Positions 47 to 11,478 of a stretch of DNA of 11,478 nt are shown piece after piece. This DNA is from a virus: the UHGV virus genome UHGV-0377753. One strand, 5' to 3'. Position 1 is the stretch's first letter. Each line of letters begins with the position of its first letter. The position numbers and the translations under genes were made by a program. The notes beneath the pieces are model-generated. The model was not told where the DNA came from. It saw nothing but the letters and a program-made list of their open reading frames with translations, and did no database searches.

Positions 47-61
47 GCTTTTTTATACTAA
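47..61. other. attL: attL core (common core O, GCTTTTTTATACTAA) of lambda site-specific recombination
   Basis: Exact 15-bp lambda att core, followed by the phage P' arm (agttggcattataaaaaagcattgcttatcaatttgttgcaacgaacaggtcactatcagtcaaaataaaatcattat) and the int gene. Confidence 0.85.
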
Positions 62-84
62 GTTGGCATTATAAAAAAGCATTG

Positions 85-138
85 CTTATCAATTTGTTGC
101 AACGAACAGGTCACTATCAGTCAAAATAAAATCATTAT
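85..138. promoter_or_regulatory. P' arm protein-binding sites: IHF H' site (atcaatttgttg, 88-99) and Int arm-type sites P'1-P'3 (caggtcactat 107-117, cagtcaaaat 118-127, aaaatcattat 128-138)
   Basis: Matches the IHF consensus WATCAANNNNTTR and tandem arm-type Int sites of the C/AAGTCACTAT family; the position relative to the core is as in lambda attP. Confidence 0.6.
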
Positions 139-1205
139 TTGATTTCAATTTTGTCCCACTCCCTGCCTCTGTCATCACGATACTGTGATGCCATGGTGTC
201 CGACTTATGCCCGAGAAGATGTTGAGCAAACTTATCGCTTATCTGCTTCTCATAGAGTCTTGCAGACAAACTGCGCAACTCGTGAAAGGTAGGCGGATCC
301 CCTTCGAAGGAAAGACCTGATGCTTTTCGTGCGCGCATAAAATACCTTGATACTGTGCCGGATGAAAGCGGTTCACGACGAGTAGATGCAATTATGGTTT
401 CTCCGCCAAGAATCTTTTTGCATTTATCAAGTGTTTCCTTCATTGATATCCCGAGAGCATCAACATGCAATGTTGTTGGGATGGCAATTTTTACGCCTGT
501 TTTGCTTTGCTCGACATAAAGATATCCATCTACGATATCAGACCACTTCATTTCGCATAAATCACCAACTCGCTGCCCGGTAACAACAGCCAGTTCCATT
601 GCAAGTCTAAGCCAACATGGTGATGATTCTGCTGCTTGATAAATTTTCAGGTATTCGTCAGCCGTAAGTCTTGATCTCCTTACCTCTGATTTTGCAGCGC
701 GAGTGGCTGCGACCGGGTTTGTTGTTATATGGCCTTCAGCTATAGCCTCTCGGAATGCATCGCTCAGTGTTGATCTGATTAACTTGGCTGATGCCGCCTT
801 GCCCTCGTCTATGTATCCATTGAGCATTGCCGCAATTTCTTTTGTGGTGATGTCTTCAAGTGGAGCATCAGGCAGACCCCTCCTTATTGCTTTAATTTTG
901 CTCATGTAATTTATGAGTGTCTTCTGCTTGATTCCTCTGCTGGCCAGGATTTTTTCGTAGCGATCAAGCCATGAATGTAACGTAACGGAATTATCACTGT
1001 TGATTCTCGCTGTCAGAGGCTTGTGTTTGTGTCCTGAAAATAACTCAATGTTGGCCTGTATAGCTTCAGTGATTGCGATTCGCCTGTCTCGGCCTAATCC
1101 AAACTCTTTACCCGTCCTTGGGTCCCTGTAGCAGTAATATCCATTGTTTCTTATATAAAGGTTAGGGGGTAAATCCCGGCGCTCATGACTTCGCCTTCTT
1201 CCCAT
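135..1205 (-). CDS. int: Integrase (tyrosine recombinase), 356 aa
   Basis: The ORF translation MGRRRSHERRDLPPNLYIRNNGYYCYRDPRTGKEFGLG... is recognisable as lambda Int over its full length; TAA stop at 135-137 overlaps arm site P'3. Confidence 0.97.
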   Translation of the reverse strand: MGRRRSHERRDLPPNLYIRNNGYYCYRDPRTGKEFGLGRDRRIAITEAIQANIELFSGHKHKPLTARINSDNSVTLHSWLDRYEKILASRGIKQKTLINYMSKIKAIRRGLPDAPLEDITTKEIAAMLNGYIDEGKAASAKLIRSTLSDAFREAIAEGHITTNPVAATRAAKSEVRRSRLTADEYLKIYQAAESSPCWLRLAMELAVVTGQRVGDLCEMKWSDIVDGYLYVEQSKTGVKIAIPTTLHVDALGISMKETLDKCKKILGGETIIASTRREPLSSGTVSRYFMRARKASGLSFEGDPPTFHELRSLSARLYEKQISDKFAQHLLGHKSDTMASQYRDDRGREWDKIEIK

Positions 1206-1401
1206 TTCTGATCCTCTTCAAAAGGCTACCTGTTACTGGTCGATTTAAGTCAACCTTTACCGCTGATTCGTGGAACAGATACTCTCTTCCATCCTTAACC
1301 GGAGGAGGGAATATCCTGCACTCGCGTACCCATCGACGAACTGTTTCAAGGCTTCTTGGGCGTCGCTGGCGTGCGTTCCACTCCTGAAGTGTCAAGTACA
1401 T
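1183..1401 (-). CDS. xis: Excisionase, 72 aa
   Basis: Translation MYLTLQEWNARQRRPRSLETVRRWVRECRIFPPPVKDGREYLFHESAVKVDL... is lambda Xis; overlaps the int start by 23 nt as in lambda. Confidence 0.95.
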   Translation of the reverse strand: MYLTLQEWNARQRRPRSLETVRRWVRECRIFPPPVKDGREYLFHESAVKVDLNRPVTGSLLKRIRNGKKAKS

Positions 1402-1430
1402 CGCAAAGTCTCCGCAATTACACGCAAGAA
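1380..1430 (-). promoter_or_regulatory. pI promoter region with cII-binding TTGC-N6-TTGC repeat (1414-1427) overlapping the xis start
   Basis: Minus strand reads cTTGCgtgtaaTTGCggagactttgcgATG; TTGC-N6-TTGC is the cII recognition motif and its position at the xis 5' end corresponds to lambda pI. Confidence 0.6.
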
Positions 1431-1448
1431 AAAACCGCCATCAGGCGG
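1429..1448 (-). terminator. Short hairpin plus U-run at the 3' end of orf55 (putative intrinsic terminator)
   Basis: ccgcc (1435-1439) / ggcgg (1444-1448) stem with a 4-nt loop; the minus-strand RNA continues into UUUUUU (1429-1434). Confidence 0.4.
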
Positions 1449-1608
1449 CTTGGTGTTCTTTCAGTTCTTCAATTCGAATATTGGTTACGTCTGCATGTGC
1501 TATCTGCGCCCACAGCATCCAGTGGTCATAGCAGTCGCTGATGTTCTCGGCTTCGATAACTCTGTTGAATGGTTCTCCATTCCATTCACCTGTGACTCGG
1601 AAGTGCAT
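1441..1608 (-). CDS. Small conserved lambda protein (orf55-like), 55 aa
   Basis: ATG at 1608 preceded by GGAG Shine-Dalgarno (ggagatgataaATG); translation MHFRVTGEWNGEPFNRVIEAENISDCYDHWMLWAQIAHADVTNIRIEELKEHQAA. Falls below the ORF-track length cutoff; position and size match the small ORF between xis and ea8.5 in lambda (from memory). Confidence 0.6.
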   Translation of the reverse strand: MHFRVTGEWNGEPFNRVIEAENISDCYDHWMLWAQIAHADVTNIRIEELKEHQAA

Positions 1609-1620
1609 TTATCATCTCCA

Positions 1621-1647
1621 TAAAAAAAACTCGCCGTAGCGAGTTCA
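1621..1647 (-). terminator. Intrinsic terminator (7-bp stem aactcgc/gcgagtt, loop cgta, followed by U8 on the minus-strand RNA)
   Basis: Forward ataaaaaaaactcgccgtagcgagtt; on the minus strand a perfect hairpin is followed by UUUUUUUU. Confidence 0.6.
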
Positions 1648-1804
1648 GATAAAAGAAATCCCCGCGAGTGCGAGGATAGTTATTCATTGTCGATATTTAC
1701 ATTTATTTCGAATATCTTTACTGGGTAATCGCCAAAGTCATATATTTTTTATTCTGTTTTATAAGCACTACCAAGTACTGCTTATTACAAATAAGAAAAG
1801 GCTG

Positions 1805-1834
1805 AAAAAAATATTTAAGGCCACAACTGTGGCC
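1805..1834 (-). terminator. Intrinsic terminator immediately downstream of the DUF1311-like gene
   Basis: Palindrome ggccacaactgtggcc (1819-1834) followed on the minus strand by UUAAAUAUUUUUUU. Confidence 0.65.
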
Positions 1835-1844
1835 CTAAATTTAC

Positions 1845-2543
1845 TTACGGCACTGCGTTAATCAGATTACAAATACCTCTTTTGGCAGGGTCTGAATTCA
1901 ACTTCTGAAAATTGGCGTTCAACATAGCCGTGTGTAAGTGATTCTCAACCTCAAAGAATAGGTCGATTTTGCCCTCTTTGGCTGCCTGTTTCTTCCAAAT
2001 ATTCACTTGGTCATCAGCAATACGACTAGCGCAAGTGAACAAGAACGAACTGCCTCTAGGAATGGATGTCGTGCTGTAATACTCACCATCTACTTCTACA
2101 TATTTAGCTCGGAATGACTCTAAGGTTAGCTTATTGCCGTTCTTGACCGACTTAGCTTCTGCCTTACTTGTATCTTCCTGCTCTTTAGAATGTTTCTGCG
2201 CCGACGTGGGTATGTCATTGGCCGCTGTTACGCTGACTGAACTCCCCAAACCTTTGAGGCCATTAATTTGGATAAGATAAGCCAGCTCCAGAGCCTTATT
2301 ATCAGTGAGTTTTCCACGCATATTTACCCACTGACGTTGAACCATTTTTAGGGTGTCTGCGTTCTCTGGGTTTCCTTTGAGGGCACTAGAATAGGCAGAG
2401 CTAAGCTGTTCGTCTAATTTTGACAGACGTTCGTTATCGCAGATTTTATGTTCGATTGCTGTCGAAGCCTTTTGGCAGTCAAAGCTGGCTGCAAATGCAC
2501 CCGGCGATGCCACTAACAATGATGCCAGTAGGATATTTTTCAT
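1845..2543 (-). CDS. Secreted (periplasmic) protein with N-terminal DUF1311 / LprI-like domain, 232 aa; occupies the position of lambda ea8.5
   Basis: Preferred start ATG 2543 with GGAG Shine-Dalgarno (gtatttatGGAGtgaatATG); the track ORF extends to 2570. Signal peptide MKNILLASLLVASPGAFA|AS. The motif FDCQKASTAIEHKICDNERLSKLDEQLSSAYSSALK fits the DUF1311 C..A.T..E..IC....L..LD..L...Y pattern. Much larger than the 93-aa Ea8.5. Confidence 0.75.
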   Translation of the reverse strand: MKNILLASLLVASPGAFAASFDCQKASTAIEHKICDNERLSKLDEQLSSAYSSALKGNPENADTLKMVQRQWVNMRGKLTDNKALELAYLIQINGLKGLGSSVSVTAANDIPTSAQKHSKEQEDTSKAEAKSVKNGNKLTLESFRAKYVEVDGEYYSTTSIPRGSSFLFTCASRIADDQVNIWKKQAAKEGKIDLFFEVENHLHTAMLNANFQKLNSDPAKRGICNLINAVP

Positions 2544-2571
2544 ATTCACTCCATAAATACAAAAGCGCATT

Positions 2572-2612
2572 ACTATAGCACTTAACCGATCGCTTATCTC
2601 GCCCGTTCGTCA
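2572..2612 (-). promoter_or_regulatory. Putative sigma70 promoter for the DUF1311 moron (extended -10 TGcTATAGT)
   Basis: Minus strand reads ...gttaagTGcTATAGTaatgcgcttttgtatttatggagtgaatATG; the -35 is weak. Confidence 0.35.
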
Positions 2613-2673
2613 TTCTTATCTAACCAGAACATGCGACTGCCACAGCACATGTCGAGGATTGCTGCATGTCCAG

Positions 2674-3222
2674 TCACTGGTTGCCTCCTTTGCGAAGCTG
2701 GGCGGCTAACTCATCACATATGTGCGTCAAAGAGCAAAGTTTGATTGATGGATGTTCGCGCATCATCTCCACCCCCTGCGCCCGTACTTCAGCCAGGAAA
2801 GCATCGGTGGCTGGCATATTTCCTGTTGCCTTCATGGCCTCCAAAATAACCAGAACACCATCTCTCCCAATCTCCTCGCAGATAACCTCGGTGCTGTCGC
2901 CAACAACATCGCAGAATTCCTGAACTGCTTTACGAGCCAGCTCATTCTCCGCCGCCAGCGCCGAAAACTTCTCGTGTGCCAACTTAACAGCTGCATCAGC
3001 CTGCTTAATTGACTCAGTCGCTTTCTGGTGGTCTTCGGCCAGCCCTGCTAAATCAGCCTCCAGTTCGGCTAGGCGTTCATTTAATGCATCTCGTTCATCC
3101 AGTAGAGCCAGCACAACCTGAGGTGTGACTTTCATACGAAATGCCAGCAATTTTTGAGGTGTTGCTACTGTTTCAATTGCTACTGCCGCCTCACGCAGTG
3201 CCTGAGAGTTAATTTCGCTCAC
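2674..3222 (-). CDS. ea22: Ea22-like early protein, 182 aa, coiled-coil rich
   Basis: N-terminus MSEINSQALREAA... and the 182-aa length match lambda Ea22; the start overlaps the orf73 stop (ATGA). Confidence 0.8.
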   Translation of the reverse strand: MSEINSQALREAAVAIETVATPQKLLAFRMKVTPQVVLALLDERDALNERLAELEADLAGLAEDHQKATESIKQADAAVKLAHEKFSALAAENELARKAVQEFCDVVGDSTEVICEEIGRDGVLVILEAMKATGNMPATDAFLAEVRAQGVEMMREHPSIKLCSLTHICDELAAQLRKGGNQ

Positions 3223-3440
3223 TTCGAACCTCTCTGTTTACTGATAAGTTCCAGATCCTCCTGGCAACTTGCACAAGTCCGACAACCCTGAACGGCCAAG
3301 CGTCTTCGTTCATCTATCGGATCGCCACACTCACAACAATGAGTGGCAGATATAGCCTGGTGGTTCAGGCGGCGCATTTTTATTGCTGTGTTGCGCTGTA
3401 ATTCTTCAATTTCTGATGCTGAATCAATGATGTCTGCCAT
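3219..3440 (-). CDS. TraR/DksA-family C4 zinc-finger protein (lambda orf73-like), 73 aa
   Basis: 73 aa with CxxC...CxxC (HCCECGD ... CRTCASC), the same size and architecture as F-plasmid TraR; lambda Orf73 is a described TraR homolog. Shine-Dalgarno aggga upstream. Confidence 0.8.
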   Translation of the reverse strand: MADIIDSASEIEELQRNTAIKMRRLNHQAISATHCCECGDPIDERRRLAVQGCRTCASCQEDLELISKQRGSK

Positions 3441-3490
3441 CTTTCATTAATCCCTGAATTGTTGGTTAATACGCTTGAGGGTGAATGCGA

Positions 3491-3516
3491 ATAATAAAAA
3501 AGGAGCCTGTAGCTCC
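3491..3516 (-). terminator. Intrinsic terminator-like hairpin within the leftward early operon (possibly tL3-equivalent)
   Basis: Stem ggagc (3502-3506) / gctcc (3512-3516) with loop ctgta, followed on the minus strand by UUUUUUAUUAUU. Confidence 0.45.
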
Positions 3517-3538
3517 CTGATGATTTTGCTTTTCATGT

Positions 3539-3820
3539 TCACCGTTCCTTAAAGACGCCGTTCAACATGCCGATCGCCAGGCTTAAATGAGTCGGTGTGA
3601 ATCCCATCAGCGTTACCGTTTCGCGGTGCTTCTTTAGTACGCTACGGCAAATGTCATCGACGTTTTTATCCGGAAACTGCTGTCTGGCTTTTTTGATTTC
3701 AGAATTAGCCTGACGGGCAATGCTGCGAAGGGCGTTTTCTTGCTGAGGTGTCATTGAACAAGCCCCATGTCGGCAAGCATAAGCACACAGAATATGAAGC
3801 CCGCTGCCAGAAAAATGCAT
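3539..3820 (-). CDS. Hypothetical protein in the lambda orf61 frame, 93 aa (alternative start 3754 gives 71 aa)
   Basis: Open frame MHFSGSGLHILCAYACRHGACSMTPQQENALRSIARQANSEIKKARQQFPDKNVDDICRSV...; an in-frame ATG at 3850 is cut off by TGA at 3821-3823 directly before this ATG. It ends just upstream of the terminator at 3491-3516. Confidence 0.45.
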   Translation of the reverse strand: MHFSGSGLHILCAYACRHGACSMTPQQENALRSIARQANSEIKKARQQFPDKNVDDICRSVLKKHRETVTLMGFTPTHLSLAIGMLNGVFKER

Positions 3821-3830
3821 TCAGTGGTTG

Positions 3831-4022
3831 TCATACCTGGTCTCTCTCATCTGCTTCTGCTTTCGCCACCATCATTTCCAGCTTTTGTGAAAGGGATGCG
3901 GCTAACGTATGAAATTCTTCGTCTGTTTCTACTGGTATTGGCACAAACCTGACTCCAATTTGAGCGAGGCTATGTGCCATCTCGATACTCGTTCTTAACT
4001 CAACGGGAGATGCTTTGTGCAT
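3831..4022 (-). CDS. Lambda Orf63-like protein, 63 aa
   Basis: Translation [63 protein letters not shown]; position and size as lambda orf63. Confidence 0.8.
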   Translation of the reverse strand: MHKASPVELRTSIEMAHSLAQIGVRFVPIPVETDEEFHTLAASLSQKLEMMVAKAEADERDQV

Positions 4023-4177
4023 ACAGCTCCCCGTTTATTATTTATCTCCTCAGCCAGCCGCTGTGCTTTCAGGGGATTTCTGATAACAGAAAGGCCGGGA
4101 AATACCCAGCCTCGCTTTGTAATGGAGTAGACGAAAGTGATCGCGCCTACCCGGATATTATCGTGAGGATGCGTCAT
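3995..4177 (-). CDS. Lambda Orf60a-like protein, 60 aa (the track ORF extends 2 codons further upstream)
   Basis: Translation [60 protein letters not shown]; overlaps the exo stop by 4 nt and orf63 by 28 nt, as in lambda. Confidence 0.7.
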
Positions 4178-4854
4178 CGCCATTGCTCCCCAAATACAAA
4201 ACCAATTTCAGCCAGTGCCTCGTCCATTTTTTCGATGAACTCCGGCACCATCTCGTCAAAACTCGCCATGTAATTTTCATCCCGCTCAACCACGACATAA
4301 TGCAGGCCTTCACGCTTCATTCGTGGGTCATAGTTGGCAAAGTACCAGGCATCTTTTCGCGTCACCCACATGCTGTACTGCACCTGGGCCATGTAAGCCG
4401 ATTTTATGGCCTCGAAACCACCGAGCCGGAACTTCATGAAATCCCGGGAGGTAAACGGGCATTTCAGTTCAAGGCCGTTGCCGTCACTGCATAAACCATC
4501 GGGAGAGCAGGCGGTGCGCATACTTTCGTCGCGATAGATGATCGGGGATTCAGTAACATTAACGCCGGAAGTGAACTCAAAGAGGGTTCTGGCGTCGTTC
4601 TCGTACTGTTTTCCCCAGGCCAGCGCCTTAGCGTTAACTTCCGGAGCCACACCGGTGCAAACCTCAGCCAGCAGGGTGTGGAAGTAGGACATTTTCATGT
4701 CAGGCCACTTCTTTCCTGAGCGGGGCTTTGCTATCACGTTGTGAACTTCTGAAGCGGTGATGACGCCGAGCCGTAATTTGTGCCATGCATCATCCCCCTG
4801 TTCGACAGCTCTCACGTCGATCCCGGTACGCTGCAGGATAATGTCCGGTGTCAT
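4174..4854 (-). CDS. exo: Lambda exonuclease (Red alpha), 226 aa
   Basis: Full-length match to lambda Exo ([65 protein letters not shown]...). Confidence 0.97.
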
Positions 4855-5641: not shown

Positions 5642-6058
5642 TTATACCTCTGAATCAATATCAACCTGATGGTGAGCAATGGTTTCAACCATGTACCGGA
5701 TGTGTTCTGCCATGCGCTCCTGAAACTCAACATCGTCATCAAACGCACGGGTAATGGCTTTTTTGCTGGCCCCGTGGCGTTGCAAATGATCGATGCATAG
5801 CGATTCAAACAGGTGCTGGGGCAGGCCTTTTTCCATGTCGTCTGCCAGTTCTGCCTCTTTCTCTTCACGGGCTATCTGCTGGTAGTGACGCGCCCAGCTC
5901 TGAGCCTCAAGACGATCCTGAATGTAATAAGCGTTCATGGCCGAACTCCTGAAATAGCTGTGAAAATATCGCCCGCGAAATGCCGGGCTGATTAGGAAAA
6001 CAGGAAAGGGGGTTAGTGAATGCTTTTGCTTGATCTCAGTTTCAGTATTAATATCCAT
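5642..6058 (-). CDS. gam: Gam (RecBCD inhibitor), 138-aa long form; the internal start MNAYYIQ gives the 98-aa GamS form
   Basis: Translation [138 protein letters not shown] matches lambda Gam. Confidence 0.95.
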
Positions 6059-6156
6059 TTTTTATAAGCGTCGACGGCCTCACGAAACATCTTTTCATCG
6101 CCAATAAAAGTGGCAATAGTGAATTTTGTCTGGATAGCCATAAGTTTTTTATCCAT
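6013..6156 (-). CDS. kil: Kil (host cell-division inhibitor), 47 aa
   Basis: ATG at 6156; translation [47 protein letters not shown]; overlaps the gam start and the cIII 3' end as in lambda. Below the track cutoff as a separate start (the track shows an 89-aa extended frame). Confidence 0.85.
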
Positions 6157-6289
6157 TTTTGGGTACTCCTGGCTGATTAAGTATGTCGATAAGGCGTTTC
6201 CATCCGTCACGTAATTTACGGGTGATTCGTTCAAGTAAAGATTCGGAAGGGCAGCCAGCAACAGGCCACCCTGCAATGGCATATTGCAT
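6149..6289 (-). CDS. cIII: cIII (FtsH/HflB inhibitor), 46 aa here, C-terminally shorter than the 54-aa lambda protein
   Basis: ATG at 6289 with Shine-Dalgarno AGGAGC; translation [46 protein letters not shown] then TAA at 6149-6151. The track ORF carries a spurious upstream extension. Confidence 0.85.
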   Translation of the reverse strand: MQYAIAGWPVAGCPSESLLERITRKLRDGWKRLIDILNQPGVPKNG

Positions 6290-6361
6290 GGTGTGCTCCT
6301 TATTTATACATAACGAAAAACGCCTCGAGTGAAGCGTTATTGGTATGCGGTAAAGCCGCAC

Positions 6362-6899: not shown

Positions 6900-7797
<898 letters not shown>

Positions 7798-8278: not shown

Positions 8279-9136
8279 TTATCGTTTATTTCTTTGATGT
8301 TTCTTTGCAGACTCAGCTTGAGTGTTTCCATACCTGCGTTTACCGCTATTGTTTTTTCCCCTAGGCTTGCCTTTTTTTCGATCTTCCCACCAGTCAGGTG
8401 CCGGGTCTGGCTCAACATGTAAAGCATCGGCAAGTCCTGATATCAAGCTGTATGACTGAACTCCATCAATGTGCTCTGACAGTGATGGGGTAACATTCTG
8501 TCTTAGTGGATCAAGAATAAAATCAATACCTTTAATTCTGGCGTGTTTGGCGGCAGGCACAAAGTCTGAGTCCCCAGCAACAAGGACAATTACATCAACA
8601 AGTTTTTCATAAGCTAAAGTCGTGATATCCATCCCTAGCTTGATATCAACTTGTTTTTGTTTGATGTCATAGTAAAAATCATCATTTGTCAGTTCATCCC
8701 ATTTTTTCGTTCCTTTCATCAGAGCATCAAGGGAGAATGTAGTTAGTTGCCATCGCTTATTATCAACAAGATTCCCTAATCTTAAGGCTGTTTTTCGAGT
8801 TTTTCTTAACTCTTCATGCAGCTCCGTTCTCAGAATATATGATTTTTCGAGTTTGAAATTCTTGCGACCAGGCGTCTTATTGCCAGGCTCAGGAAGTGGA
8901 AGGCGTGTTTGAATGTCGAGTGGTGGACAGTCATAGAAGTAAATTCTATAAAGCTCAAGCGGTTCCCTACGTTCTTGTGATTGACGTTTTCCATTAAGAT
9001 GGGAAAGAACCATTGACCATATTACTTTCATTATGCATTGCGCAGTCAGTTCATGCTCGGCGAAGTGTTTACGATGCGTAGCATGAACACGCTGCATGAA
9101 AAAACCCGCATCAATTAAAATTGCTGCTTTCTTCAT
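8279..9136 (-). CDS. NYN-domain (PIN-like, LabA/YacP-type) predicted RNase with a highly basic C-terminal tail, 285 aa; occupies the rexA-rexB slot between cI and pL
   Basis: N-terminal motif MKKAAILIDAGFF and C-terminal motif DIKLGMDITTLAYEKLVDVIVLVAGDSDFVPAAKHARIKGIDFIL match the two conserved NYN blocks (Asp in IDAG; GDSDF). The tail WWEDRKKGKPRGKNNSGKRRYGNTQAESAKKHQRNKR is Lys/Arg-rich. AT-rich codon usage. Confidence 0.8.
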   Translation of the reverse strand: MKKAAILIDAGFFMQRVHATHRKHFAEHELTAQCIMKVIWSMVLSHLNGKRQSQERREPLELYRIYFYDCPPLDIQTRLPLPEPGNKTPGRKNFKLEKSYILRTELHEELRKTRKTALRLGNLVDNKRWQLTTFSLDALMKGTKKWDELTNDDFYYDIKQKQVDIKLGMDITTLAYEKLVDVIVLVAGDSDFVPAAKHARIKGIDFILDPLRQNVTPSLSEHIDGVQSYSLISGLADALHVEPDPAPDWWEDRKKGKPRGKNNSGKRRYGNTQAESAKKHQRNKR

Positions 9137-10722: not shown

Positions 10723-11451
10723 ATGACAAATACAGCAAAAATACTCAACTTCGGCAGAGGTAACTTTGCCGGACAGGAGCGTAATGTGGCAGATCTCGAT
10801 GATGGTTACGCCAGACTATCAAATATGCTGCTTGAGGCTTATTCGGGCGCAGATCTGACCAAGCGACAGTTTAAAGTGCTGCTTGCCATTCTGCGTAAAA
10901 CCTATGGGTGGAATAAACCAATGGACAGAATCACCGATTCTCAACTTAGCGAGATTACAAAGTTACCTGTCAAACGGTGCAATGAAGCCAAGTTAGAACT
11001 CGTCAGAATGAATATTATCAAGCAGCAAGGCGGCATGTTTGGACCAAATAAAAACATCTCAGAATGGTGTATCCCTCAAAACGAGGGACAATCCCCTAAA
11101 ACGAGGGATAAAACATCCCTCAAATTGGGGGATTGCTATCCCTCAAAACAGGGGGACACAAAAGACACTATTACAAAAGAAAAAAGAAAAGATTATTCGT
11201 CAGAGAATTCTGGCGAATCCTCTGACCAGCCAGAAAACGATCTTTCTGTGGTTAAACCGGATGCTGCAATTCAGAGCGGCAGCAAGTGGGGGACAGCAGA
11301 AGACCTGACCGCCACAGAGTGGATGTTTGACATGGTGACCATCTGTGCGGCGATGTTTTTCATAAATCCACCCCGTAAATCCAGTCAGTGTTTGTCAGGT
11401 CGAGTTTTGGTTTGCTGGCTGTCACGCCTGCCTGTTGCTTGTTACGGTTGA
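10723..11451 (+). CDS. O: Replication initiator O, N-terminal about 205 codons intact (iteron-binding domain); the frame departs from O after ...EWMFDMV at 11338 and ends in 36 unrelated residues
   Basis: Translation MTNTAKILNFGRGNFAGQERNVADLDDGYARLSNMLLEAYSGADLTKRQFKVLLAILRKTYGWNKPMDRITDSQLSEITKLPVKRCNEAKLELVRMNIIKQQGGMFGPNKNISEWCIPQNEGQSPKTRDK... matches lambda O up to FDMV; the tail TICAAMFFINPPRKSSQCLSGRVLVCWLSRLPVACYG is the antisense of the O/P junction. Confidence 0.8.
   Translation: MTNTAKILNFGRGNFAGQERNVADLDDGYARLSNMLLEAYSGADLTKRQFKVLLAILRKTYGWNKPMDRITDSQLSEITKLPVKRCNEAKLELVRMNIIKQQGGMFGPNKNISEWCIPQNEGQSPKTRDKTSLKLGDCYPSKQGDTKDTITKEKRKDYSSENSGESSDQPENDLSVVKPDAAIQSGSKWGTAEDLTATEWMFDMVTICAAMFFINPPRKSSQCLSGRVLVCWLSRLPVACYG
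11071..11200. repeat. ori-lambda: four O-binding iterons (11071-11088, 11091-11108, 11115-11132, 11137-11155) followed by an AT-rich unwinding region
   Basis: Iterons atccctcaaaacgaggga / atcccctaaaacgaggga / atccctcaaattggggga / atccctcaaaacaggggga, then acaaaagacactattacaaaagaaaaaagaaaag. Confidence 0.9.
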
Positions 11452-11478
11452 TTTCGAGCTGGGTCCACTTGTCGCGGA
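11339..11478 (-). pseudogene. Inverted fragment carrying the O 3' end (at least 38 codons, ...RDKWTQLEINRNKQQAGVTASKPKLDLTNTDWIYGVDL*) and the first 8 codons of P (MKNIAAQM) on the minus strand
   Basis: The reverse complement of 11341-11478 reads cgcgacaagtggacccagctcgaaatcaaccgtaacaagcaacaggcaggcgtgacagccagcaaaccaaaactcgacctgacaaacactgactggatttacggggtggatttATGAaaaacatcgccgcacagat, i.e. the O C-terminus with the O-stop/P-start ATGA overlap. Confidence 0.75.

What the first reader, a model, noticed from the sequence alone, without database searches (positions are those of the whole stretch)
1650..2673. ea8.5 slot replaced by a secreted DUF1311-like protein as a self-contained moron
Between orf55 and ea22, lambda has the 93-aa ea8.5 gene. 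Here there is instead a 232-aa protein with a cleavable signal peptide and a DUF1311-type N-terminal domain (the two-Cys motif FDCQKAS...EHKICDNERL...LDEQL...Y). It is flanked by its own candidate promoter (extended -10 TGcTATAGT), a good Shine-Dalgarno and a hairpin plus U-tract terminator, the classic moron layout. A periplasmic prophage-encoded factor could be a lysogenic-conversion or envelope-protection function (some DUF1311/LprI proteins are lysozyme inhibitors).
Basis: partly seen in the sequence, partly recalled or inferred. Interest (0 to 1): 0.55.

Follow-up and report, generated by a model that had tools for sequence, protein, structure and literature searches.

The report
Phage moron encoding periplasmic DUF1311 protein
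A lambda-like E. coli prophage carries, where lambda has ea8.5, a self-contained gene cassette for an exported two-domain protein (a DUF1311 domain plus an unknown domain) that occurs only in phages and whose function has never been tested; it is real but a fairly ordinary phage accessory gene.

Summary
The window is 100% identical here to Escherichia phage ev099. A 232-aa gene lies at 1845-2543 (minus strand), between orf55 and an ea22-like gene. It has a Sec-type signal peptide (AFA|AS), a GGAG ribosome site, a Pfam LprI/DUF1311 hit above the curated cut-off, and a strong hairpin plus T-run terminator. RefSeq already calls it "lysozyme inhibitor LprI family protein".

The moron reading is supported by comparison. 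Homology to the unrelated SSU5-type phage-plasmids (83%) runs only from about 35 nt upstream of the conserved TGnTATAGT to the terminator T-run (1805-2612). In E. coli the cassette sits in lambdoid prophages with different integrases and neighbours. Promoter activity is unproven.

The protein has a DUF1311 helical domain, a disordered linker evolving neutrally, and a confidently modelled C-terminal domain with no Pfam or PDB relative. Both folded domains are under strong purifying selection.

The "lysozyme inhibitor" label is weak, because the MliC domain that does that job in mycobacterial LprI is absent. Full-length homologues also occur as early genes in virulent T4-like Aeromonas phages, which argues against a purely lysogenic-conversion role.

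Best guess: a periplasmic binder or inhibitor of a cell-wall-cleaving enzyme, target unknown. Interest is moderate to low.

The parts
1845..2543 (-). Coding sequence of the 232-aa precursor, stop codon included. RefSeq YP_009909933, named 'lysozyme inhibitor LprI family protein'; PHROG 4675.
   Evidence: ORF list; RefSeq annotation; PHROG 4675 full-length match, E 3.5e-94; dN/dS 0.17-0.23 against SSU5-type copies.
2490..2543 (-). Signal peptide, residues 1-18 (MKNILLASLLVASPGAFA, predicted cleavage before AS). Sec/signal-peptidase-I type, no lipobox.
   Evidence: Hydrophobicity profile and the -3/-1 rule. pLDDT below 50 for residues 1-17. The same layout occurs in all homologues.
2244..2489 (-). 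N-terminal DUF1311/LprI domain, residues 19-100. It is helical, with invariant Cys23 and Cys35 and the motifs ASFDCxKA..E..IC, LD, Y and Q..W...R.
2136..2243 (-). Disordered, low-complexity linker, residues 101-136.
   Evidence: pLDDT about 30. dN/dS 0.56-1.2, about 1 in most comparisons, consistent with little or no constraint. Length is variable across homologues.
1848..2135 (-). C-terminal domain of unknown family, residues 137-232: a short helix, a beta-hairpin and three helices. Cys171, Asn209 and Cys225 are invariant.
2549..2552 (-). Shine-Dalgarno GGAG, 5 nt upstream of the ATG at 2543.
   Evidence: Read directly from the sequence; identical in all SSU5-type copies.
2572..2580 (-). Candidate extended -10 promoter element TGcTATAGT. 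The -35 is poor (GAGATA at 2600..2595).
   Evidence: Read from the sequence. TGnTATAGT is invariant in every lambdoid and SSU5-type copy examined. It was not called by the two-hexamer scan, and the motif alone is not above chance. Activity is untested.
1805..1840 (-). Intrinsic terminator: hairpin 1840..1813 (AUUUAGGGCCAC-AGUU-GUGGCCUUAAAU) followed by AUUUUUUU.
   Evidence: Terminator scan. Folding energy -17.6 kcal/mol, z -5.1. In SSU5-type copies the GGCCAC/GUGGCC stem is invariant while the loop varies.
1805..2612 (-). Mobile cassette proper: the stretch shared (about 83% identity) with SSU5-type phage-plasmids, from upstream of the -10 element to the terminator T-run.
   Evidence: Megablast limits; alignments. 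Sliding identity falls from about 0.9 to about 0.2 at both edges. No flanking direct or inverted repeats.
2594..2677 (-). 27-codon remnant ORF (VTGHAAILDMCCGSRMFWLDKNDERAR, then a stop). It is the N-terminus of a SAM-dependent methyltransferase gene truncated by the cassette, and its GTG overlaps the ea22 stop codon (GTGA).
   Evidence: Translation. PGAP annotates the same stretch as a methyltransferase pseudogene in strain S1-CAM-01-C. Conserved in all four lambdoid copies.
1684..1804 (-). Junction DNA between the cassette and the lambda-like backbone. 1684-1738 is the 3' remnant of an HK022-type gene; 1739-1804 is an AT-rich spacer of unknown origin.
   Evidence: Lambda homology ends at 1683; alignment with HK022.
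1627..1677 (-). Two tandem backbone terminators (1677..1658 and 1646..1627) shared with HK022 (annotated tL4) and 434. They are not part of the cassette but reinforce insulation of orf55, xis and int.
   Evidence: Terminator scan; folds of -12.1 and -11.9 kcal/mol; alignment and annotation.

Best explanation
This is a horizontally mobile promoter-to-terminator cassette (a moron). It sits in the variable slot between orf55 and ea22 of a lambdoid prophage.

The cassette encodes a Sec-exported, soluble periplasmic protein that is probably disulfide-bonded. The protein has a DUF1311/LprI helical domain and a second, uncharacterised helical domain, joined by a floppy linker.

In the lysogen the gene would be read from its own weak extended -10 promoter and stopped by its own terminator, so that xis and int stay silent. 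During lytic growth N-antiterminated pL transcripts would read through it.

The most likely activity is stoichiometric binding and neutralisation, in the periplasm, of an enzyme that cleaves peptidoglycan. That is the theme common to all studied DUF1311 proteins. Which enzyme is unknown.

Shown here:
- the gene, its export signal, its domain membership and fold;
- purifying selection on both folded domains;
- the cassette boundaries and its spread among unrelated phages.

Inferred:
- promoter activity;
- periplasmic location and disulfides;
- binding to a hydrolase.
For: Gene, ribosome site and signal peptide.

Selection: both domains are constrained (dN/dS 0.07-0.28) and the linker evolves about neutrally.

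Cysteines: two invariant pairs, 23/35 and 171/225, fit an oxidising compartment.

Cassette behaviour:
- The boundaries coincide with the promoter region and the terminator.
- The cassette is in 108 chromosomal E. coli places, in prophages with different integrases and neighbours.
- It is in 126 phage-plasmid-sized plasmids and 34 IMG/VR contigs.
- Among species-representative genomes only one contig carries it, of phage-plasmid size.
- The terminator is strong.

Literature on DUF1311 proteins:
- Etsi4 rescues E. coli from the periplasm-acting cell-wall effector Etse4 (PMC12981562).
- LprI-domain proteins with signal peptides are predicted immunity proteins next to lysozyme-like T6SS effectors (PMC9796082, PMC12135965).
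- ScwA is periplasmic, disulfide-bonded and controls the lytic transglycosylase MltD (PMC7933661).
Against: - No experiment exists on this protein or on any close relative.
- The extended -10 motif is not statistically distinguishable from chance and the -35 is poor.
- Conservation of the 5' UTR between phage groups (90-93%) is about the same as third-codon-position identity in the adjacent first 40 codons (0.8-0.95). It may therefore reflect recent exchange rather than constraint.
- The Pfam hit is only 3 bits above the cut-off and covers 70 of 106 profile positions.
- DUF1311 is a very large family with heterogeneous roles. ScwA has no lysozyme-protective effect (PMC7933661).
- The most constrained part, the C-terminal domain, has no known relative, so the real activity may lie there and be unrelated to cell-wall enzymes.
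Confidence: 0.45

Rival explanations
1. Spackle-like superinfection exclusion. The periplasmic protein inhibits the virion-borne wall-degrading enzyme of incoming phages, as T4 Spackle inhibits the gp5 tail lysozyme. This would protect the lysogen, or an infected cell, from superinfection and from lysis from without.
For: - The two-domain family is confined to phages, both temperate and strictly virulent. Full-length homologues are early genes in T4-like Aeromonas phages; the C-domain match has hhalign probability 94%, E 1.4e-7.
- Only a function useful to the phage itself explains both lifestyles.
- In 44RR2.8t and Klebsiella Marfavirus the gene lies in the early 41-61-56 region that holds sp in T4.
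- T4 Spackle is likewise a small periplasmic lysozyme-binding protein (PMC7677548).
- tblastn for Spackle lists no Aeromonas phages among its main host groups, whereas 65 Aeromonas phage records carry the DUF1311 homologue.
Against: - The slot in T4-like phages (between genes 61 and 56) is near the sp slot but is not the same slot.
- Klebsiella phage PWKp16 carries both Spackle and an LprI-domain protein.
- The complementary distribution rests on tblastn summaries only.
Confidence: 0.22
2. Orphan type VI secretion immunity, a form of lysogenic conversion. The protein neutralises a periplasm-acting peptidoglycan-hydrolase effector injected by competing Enterobacteriaceae, giving lysogens and phage-plasmid carriers a competitive advantage.
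For: DUF1311/LprI proteins with signal peptides are experimentally (Etsi4, PMC12981562) or by context (PMC9796082, PMC12135965) immunity proteins against cell-wall-targeting T6SS effectors, including orphan copies. The moron layout suits expression in the lysogen.
Against: - No effector gene or T6SS gene lies near any copy.
- Outside phage-type elements the family was found in no species-representative genome.
- Homologues in virulent T4-like phages are hard to explain this way.
- The C-terminal domain has no counterpart in the known immunity proteins that were examined.
Confidence: 0.15
3. Inhibitor of animal lysozyme, as the database name implies. This would protect lysogens in the gut, in egg white or in macrophages.
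For: RefSeq name and Pfam family name. Many carriers are avian or clinical E. coli. M. tuberculosis LprI inhibits lysozyme (Sethi et al. 2016, as cited in PMC7933661).
Against: - In mycobacterial LprI the MliC domain is the part shown to suffice for inhibition, and it is absent here (PMC7933661).
- The Salmonella LprI-domain protein ScwA gave no lysozyme protection (PMC7933661).
- There are no hits to the Ivy, MliC/PliC or PliG families.
- Homologues in virulent phages of the fish pathogen Aeromonas do not fit this role.
Confidence: 0.08
4. Modulator of the cell's own or the phage's own murein enzymes. It would act like ScwA on MltD, or as a brake on the phage endolysin and so on lysis timing, and would work mainly in the lytic cycle as an ordinary pL-operon gene rather than as a lysogen-expressed moron.
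For: - The gene is co-oriented with the pL operon, and no terminator lies between ea22 and it, so it will be transcribed early in lytic growth.
- In SSU5 and in T4-like phages it lies within early-gene strings.
- ScwA is a precedent (PMC7933661).
- ev099 uses a true lysozyme (RrrD type) as its endolysin.
Against: The conserved private terminator and -10 element, and cassette boundaries that coincide with them, suggest autonomous expression. There is no linkage to lysis genes in any context seen.
Confidence: 0.1

Closest known systems
Pfam PF07007 LprI / DUF1311 family (for example Pseudomonas putida PP0307, PDB 3gi7; Salmonella ScwA; EHEC Etsi4; M. tuberculosis LprI)
   Different: - It lacks the MliC domain of mycobacterial LprI.
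- It is not a lipoprotein.
- It carries a C-terminal domain with no known relative.
- It is encoded only on phages.
- It is not adjacent to any effector gene.
Classical lambdoid morons (lambda bor and lom; HK97 gene 15; the porin gene between Q and the lysis genes)
   Same: It is a single accessory gene in a variable slot of a lambdoid genome, bracketed by a candidate promoter and an intrinsic terminator. The same unit is found in otherwise unrelated phage backgrounds, and its product is exported to the envelope.
   Different: It is co-oriented with the early left operon, so it is also an early lytic gene. Promoter activity in lysogens has not been shown. The GC difference from neighbours is modest (44% against 51-52%).
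T4 Spackle (gene sp / 61.3)
   Same: It is a phage-encoded, signal-peptide-bearing, small helical periplasmic protein. Relatives of the present family lie in the same early 41-61-56 region of T4-like genomes. Spackle works by stoichiometric inhibition of a lysozyme (PMC7677548).
   Different: There is no detectable sequence or structural similarity. The present protein is twice as long and has two domains. Some phages carry both proteins.
PHROG 4675 (with PHROGs 14799, 33858 and 4895)
   Same: The protein matches PHROG 4675 end to end (E 3.5e-94). The other three PHROGs match the N-terminal part, which shows that DUF1311 proteins recur in phages.
   Different: All four are listed as 'unknown function', so membership gives no mechanism.

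Membership tests
Pfam PF07007 LprI / DUF1311 | Profile HMM score at or above the curated gathering score | tested here: met
   25.2 bits against 22, E 2.2e-5, residues 23-78, profile positions 1-70 of 106. Also precomputed PF07007 hits on nearly all close homologues.
Pfam PF07007 LprI / DUF1311 | Conserved cysteines at the start of the domain | tested here: met
   Cys23 and Cys35 are invariant or nearly invariant across distant homologues.
Pfam PF07007 LprI / DUF1311 | Helical fold like the solved DUF1311 structure | tested here: met
Functional lysozyme inhibitor (as in M. tuberculosis LprI) | Presence of an MliC/PliC-type domain (PF09864), the part shown to suffice for lysozyme inhibition | tested here: not met
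   No such Pfam hit at E up to 1. The argument for MliC being the active part comes from PMC7933661.
Functional lysozyme inhibitor (as in M. tuberculosis LprI) | Inhibition of lysozyme activity in vitro or protection in vivo | not testable with these tools
   Needs purified protein or isogenic strains.
Moron (sense of Hendrix and colleagues) | A discrete extra gene unit present in some related phage genomes and absent from or replaced in others at the same position | tested here: met
   Lambda has ea8.5 at this position; 434 has two opposite-strand membrane-protein genes; HK022 has another gene. Sequence matching window 1400-2900, which also includes the cassette, is found in 2988 of 5426 complete E. 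coli genomes; the cassette itself is in about 125.
Moron (sense of Hendrix and colleagues) | Own intrinsic terminator | tested here: met
   conserved in SSU5-type copies with loop variation.
Moron (sense of Hendrix and colleagues) | Own promoter, active in the lysogen | tested here: inconclusive
   TGnTATAGT is invariant in all copies. However, the motif is not above chance, it was not called by the two-hexamer scan, and its conservation is not clearly above the local neutral level. Activity needs transcript mapping.
Moron (sense of Hendrix and colleagues) | The same unit in unrelated phage backgrounds | tested here: met
   Lambdoid prophages with three integrase/attB types and SSU5-type phage-plasmids. 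Homology is limited to 1805-2612.
T6SS immunity protein | Encoded next to its cognate effector or inside a T6SS or orphan-immunity island | tested here: not met
   All contexts seen are phage early regions with no effector or T6SS genes.
T4 Spackle family | Sequence or fold similarity to Spackle | tested here: not met

The most novel reading that the evidence does not exclude
The protein would found a phage-specific family of periplasmic inhibitors of virion-associated cell-wall-degrading enzymes. It would be a functional analogue of T4 Spackle built from a DUF1311 domain plus a new C-terminal domain. Temperate phages (lambdoid prophages and SSU5-type phage-plasmids) and virulent T4-like phages would both use it to exclude superinfecting phages, and it would spread between them as a promoter-to-terminator cassette.
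Probability: 0.2. Interest if true: 0.6.

Novelty: new member of a known kind. Interest (0 to 1): 0.35.

Why it matters
If the protein neutralises a cell-wall-cleaving enzyme, it would be a prophage-borne trait carried by about 2% of complete E. coli genomes and by many SSU5-type phage-plasmids of Salmonella, Enterobacter, Citrobacter and Klebsiella. It could affect phage susceptibility (relevant to phage therapy), bacterial competition or host-lysozyme resistance.

It would also give a first function to a phage-restricted DUF1311 subfamily and to an orphan C-terminal domain.

The work also shows that the database name 'lysozyme inhibitor' is an unsupported transfer. As it stands, this is an uncharacterised accessory gene of a common type.

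Tried and rejected
- Sequence search of the PDB with the protein, and with profiles of each domain, gave nothing meaningful. The only related hit was a weak match of the N-domain to 6ar7.
- Foldseek against the PDB found nothing.
- The afdb50 library was not available.
- I tested whether the C-domain is a diverged second DUF1311 repeat. It is not: hhalign probability 0.1%.
- PADLOC defence models gave no hit. NCBIfam gave only sub-threshold noise.
- The word-index protein search with the C-domain profile returned only fragments of the same family.
- I looked for genomic context of distant homologues. All lie on metagenomic contigs of about 0.5-1.5 kb and are uninformative.
- There are no flanking direct or inverted repeats, so transposition is not indicated.
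- Rfam found no RNA family in or near the cassette.
- The literature search found no paper on this phage gene. One recent preprint found by the search could not be opened.
- I considered a lipoprotein and rejected it because there is no lipobox. I considered the longer 241-aa start and rejected it because that ATG is missing in the SSU5-type copies.
Full report
**Identity of the region**

The window is the early-left and immunity region of a lambdoid phage. Positions 1400-2900 are 100% identical to Escherichia phage ev099 (NC_049953) and to about a hundred E. coli chromosomes.

The gene order on the minus strand is:
- int, 135-1205
- xis, 1183-1401
- orf55, 1441-1608
- the gene in question, 1845-2543
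- an ea22-like gene, 2674-3222
- a DksA-like zinc-finger gene, then exo, bet, gam and the rest

Nucleotide homology to lambda covers only window 47-1683 and 3178-4200. The substituted block is therefore 1684-3177 and also includes a different ea22 allele.

**The observation**

All listed features are there.

- *Start codon.* The 232-aa frame starts at the ATG at 2543, preceded by GGAG five bases upstream. The longer 241-aa frame listed mechanically begins at an ATG that does not exist in the SSU5-type copies. RefSeq uses 2543.
- *Signal peptide.* The N-terminus is a textbook Sec signal peptide: MK, the hydrophobic core ILLASLLVA, then SPG and AFA|AS, with no lipobox. AlphaFold gives it pLDDT below 50.
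- *Domain.* Pfam LprI (PF07007, the former DUF1311) matches residues 23-78 at 25.2 bits against a cut-off of 22.
- *Terminator.* The hairpin at 1840..1813 followed by ATTTTTTT was found by the scan. It folds at -17.6 kcal/mol, z -5.1.
- *Promoter.* The extended -10 TGcTATAGT is at 2580..2572. The two-hexamer scan did not call it, the best -35 is 3 of 6, and the motif with one mismatch is as frequent as in shuffled sequence (9 against 10.7). The promoter is a positional and comparative inference, not a statistical one.

**The protein**

An exhaustive HMMER search found 5040 relatives at E up to 0.001. Almost all match only residues about 5-110, the DUF1311 domain. A handful of proteins of 210-230 aa match end to end at 27-37% identity.

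AlphaFold2 gives three parts:
- a helical N-domain, residues 20-100;
- a disordered linker, residues 101-136, pLDDT about 30;
- a C-domain, residues 140-230.

The C-domain modelled alone is confident (pLDDT 91.3, pTM 0.82): a short helix, a beta-hairpin and three helices. It has no relative by any test:
- Pfam;
- PDB sequence search;
- hhalign against the N-domain, which rules out a diverged DUF1311 repeat.

Cys171, Asn209 and Cys225 are invariant in the C-domain, as are Cys23 and Cys35 in the N-domain. Two cysteine pairs behind a signal peptide fit a DsbA-oxidised periplasmic protein. This is an inference, although the same was shown for the LprI-domain protein ScwA (PMC7933661).

Against the SSU5-type copies, dN/dS is 0.07-0.28 for the N-domain, 0.07 for the C-domain and about 1 for the linker. 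Both folded parts are functional and the linker is a tether.

**The cassette**

The gene recurs at about 83% nucleotide identity in Salmonella phage SSU5 and in 126 plasmids of about 110 kb (SSU5-type phage-plasmids of Enterobacter, Escherichia and Citrobacter, plus one Kluyvera and one Shigella record).

Homology spans exactly window 1805-2612. It starts about 35 nt upstream of the -10 element and stops at the terminator T-run. Identity falls from about 0.9 to about 0.2 within 60 nt at either edge.

TGnTATAGT, the 5' UTR and the ribosome site are essentially invariant. The terminator stem is invariant while its loop varies.

In E. coli the cassette is found in 108 chromosomal places. These are lambdoid prophages inserted at the lambda site (ybhC), at thrW-proA and at mdtA, with ea22 or a DUF2737 gene upstream.

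Upstream of the cassette all lambdoid copies keep a 27-codon N-terminal remnant of a SAM-dependent methyltransferase (2594-2677). This remnant is joined to what in SSU5 is the 3' end of the preceding gene. The unit therefore probably entered a methyltransferase gene of a lambdoid phage from an SSU5-like arrangement.

Downstream, 1684-1738 is a remnant of an HK022-type gene, followed by the two backbone terminators shared with HK022 (tL4) and 434. There are no flanking repeats.

Phage 434 carries quite different, opposite-strand genes in the same slot. All this fits the genomic definition of a moron.

*A caveat on the promoter.* Third-codon-position identity between the two phage groups is 0.8-0.95 in the first 40 codons and 0.5-0.7 in the 3' half. 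The near-identity of the 5' UTR may therefore reflect more recent exchange of the 5' half rather than selection. Within the SSU5 group the upstream 40 nt are 97% identical against 85% at third positions, which is only modest evidence for constraint.

**Function**

The database name is weak.
- In mycobacterial LprI an MliC domain accompanies the LprI domain, and MliC is what has been shown to suffice for lysozyme inhibition. The Salmonella LprI-domain protein ScwA is periplasmic and disulfide-bonded. It gave no lysozyme protection, and it controls the lytic transglycosylase MltD (PMC7933661).
- No MliC, Ivy or PliG domain is present here.

Other DUF1311 proteins are immunity proteins against periplasm-acting cell-wall effectors of type VI secretion. 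This is experimental for Etsi4 (PMC12981562) and based on context in Pantoea and for WHIX effectors (PMC9796082, PMC12135965).

The common denominator is binding of a peptidoglycan-cleaving enzyme in the periplasm, and I take that as the most likely activity (confidence about 0.45).

**The likely target**

A protein-level search of phage genomes changed the picture. 154 phage records carry homologues, including 65 Aeromonas records, 24 Klebsiella records (those sampled are Marfavirus-type) and RB49-like coliphages. Every one of these examined or sampled is a virulent T4-like (Straboviridae) phage.

- In Aeromonas phage 44RR2.8t the homologue (ORF027c) is full length. The C-domain match has hhalign probability 94%, E 1.4e-7. 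The gene lies between genes 61 and 56.
- In Klebsiella phage PWKp16 an LprI-domain protein lies just upstream of gene 56, and a Spackle gene lies between genes 41 and 61.
- In T4 the order is 41-dmd-61.4-sp-61.2-61.1-61-dam-56.

The family thus sits in the same early, variable region as the superinfection-exclusion gene sp, though not in the same slot.

Outside phage-type elements the family was found in no species-representative genome; the only close hit was a 108-kb Kluyvera contig.

A function that serves the phage directly would explain its presence in temperate and virulent phages alike. One candidate is Spackle-like inhibition of incoming virion lysozymes (PMC7677548). Orphan T6SS immunity or resistance to animal lysozyme would not explain this.

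There is, however, no sequence or fold similarity to Spackle, and some phages carry both proteins. I rate this reading at about 0.2 and list it as the novel case.

**Verdict**

The gene is already annotated and belongs to a known domain family and a known kind of phage element.

What is new here:
- a precise delimitation of the mobile unit;
- recognition of an orphan, strongly constrained C-terminal domain;
- the restriction of the family to phages, including virulent ones;
- the weakness of the 'lysozyme inhibitor' label.

Novelty: a new member of a known kind. Interest: 0.35.

Noticed in passing
window 11338-11478: The last 141 bases are the reverse complement of the ev099 record's O-end/P-start segment. 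About 165 bases of the record are skipped. As a result the O-like replication gene (10723-11451) runs into an out-of-frame tail and is truncated at about residue 205, whereas the RefSeq record has an intact 299-aa O. This is an inversion or rearrangement in the source genome, or an assembly or window artefact.
   Followed up: partly
window 6978-7481 (+) versus 7167-7433 (-): A 167-aa plus-strand ORF (coiled coil plus a C-terminal CxxC...CxxC) matches PHROG 1244 at E 4.6e-53. RefSeq instead annotates the overlapping 88-aa minus-strand ORF, which has no PHROG hit. This is probably a wrong-strand annotation, and another opposite-strand accessory gene between N and the DUF2528 gene.
   Followed up: partly
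window 8279-9136 (-): A 285-aa NYN-domain protein (Pfam E 6.8e-9; PHROG 5783; weak PADLOC hits to HEC-09 and a NYN nuclease) occupies the place of rexA/rexB next to the cI repressor gene. It is a candidate lysogen-expressed defence or exclusion gene.
   Followed up: partly
window 6149-6361 (-), Rfam hit 6244-6302: The lambda cIII thermoregulator RNA element is present at 88.5 bits, and a cIII-like ORF (MQYAIAGWPVAG...) lies there. The RefSeq record, however, annotates only an 89-aa 'Kil' ORF (6013-6282) that overlaps it. cIII appears unannotated and Kil over-extended.
   Followed up: no
window 1845-2543 compared with L002, L009 and L036: There is a steep gradient of synonymous divergence along the gene between lambdoid and SSU5-type copies. 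Third-position identity is about 0.9 in the first 40 codons and 0.5-0.7 in the C-terminal half; dS is about 0.15 in the signal peptide and about 1.2 in the C-domain. This suggests an internal recombination breakpoint or a constraint on the 5' mRNA.
   Followed up: partly
L049 5001-5666; L051 5001-5753; L050 5001-5759: Homologues are early genes in virulent T4-like phages. They are full length in Aeromonas phage 44RR2.8t (between genes 61 and 56), share the N-domain plus a partial match in Klebsiella Marfavirus (next to gene 56, with Spackle nearby), and share the N-domain only in RB49.
   Followed up: partly
window 2594-2677 (-) and 1684-1738 (-): Two gene remnants flank the cassette: a 27-codon N-terminal stub of a SAM-dependent methyltransferase whose GTG overlaps the ea22 stop codon, and the 3' end of an HK022-type gene. 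They are scars of the recombination events that built this mosaic.
   Followed up: yes
L045 2218-2994 (phage 434): In phage 434 the same slot, between orf55 and the zinc-finger gene, holds two opposite-strand 'putative membrane protein' genes with an annotated CII-binding site. The slot is a general hotspot for accessory cargo.
   Followed up: no
L047 8429-9511 (ev099 record, outside the window): The same phage carries an OmpD-like porin gene on the opposite strand between Q and the holin gene. It uses an RrrD-type true lysozyme as its endolysin, which is relevant if the DUF1311 protein inhibits lysozymes.
   Followed up: no
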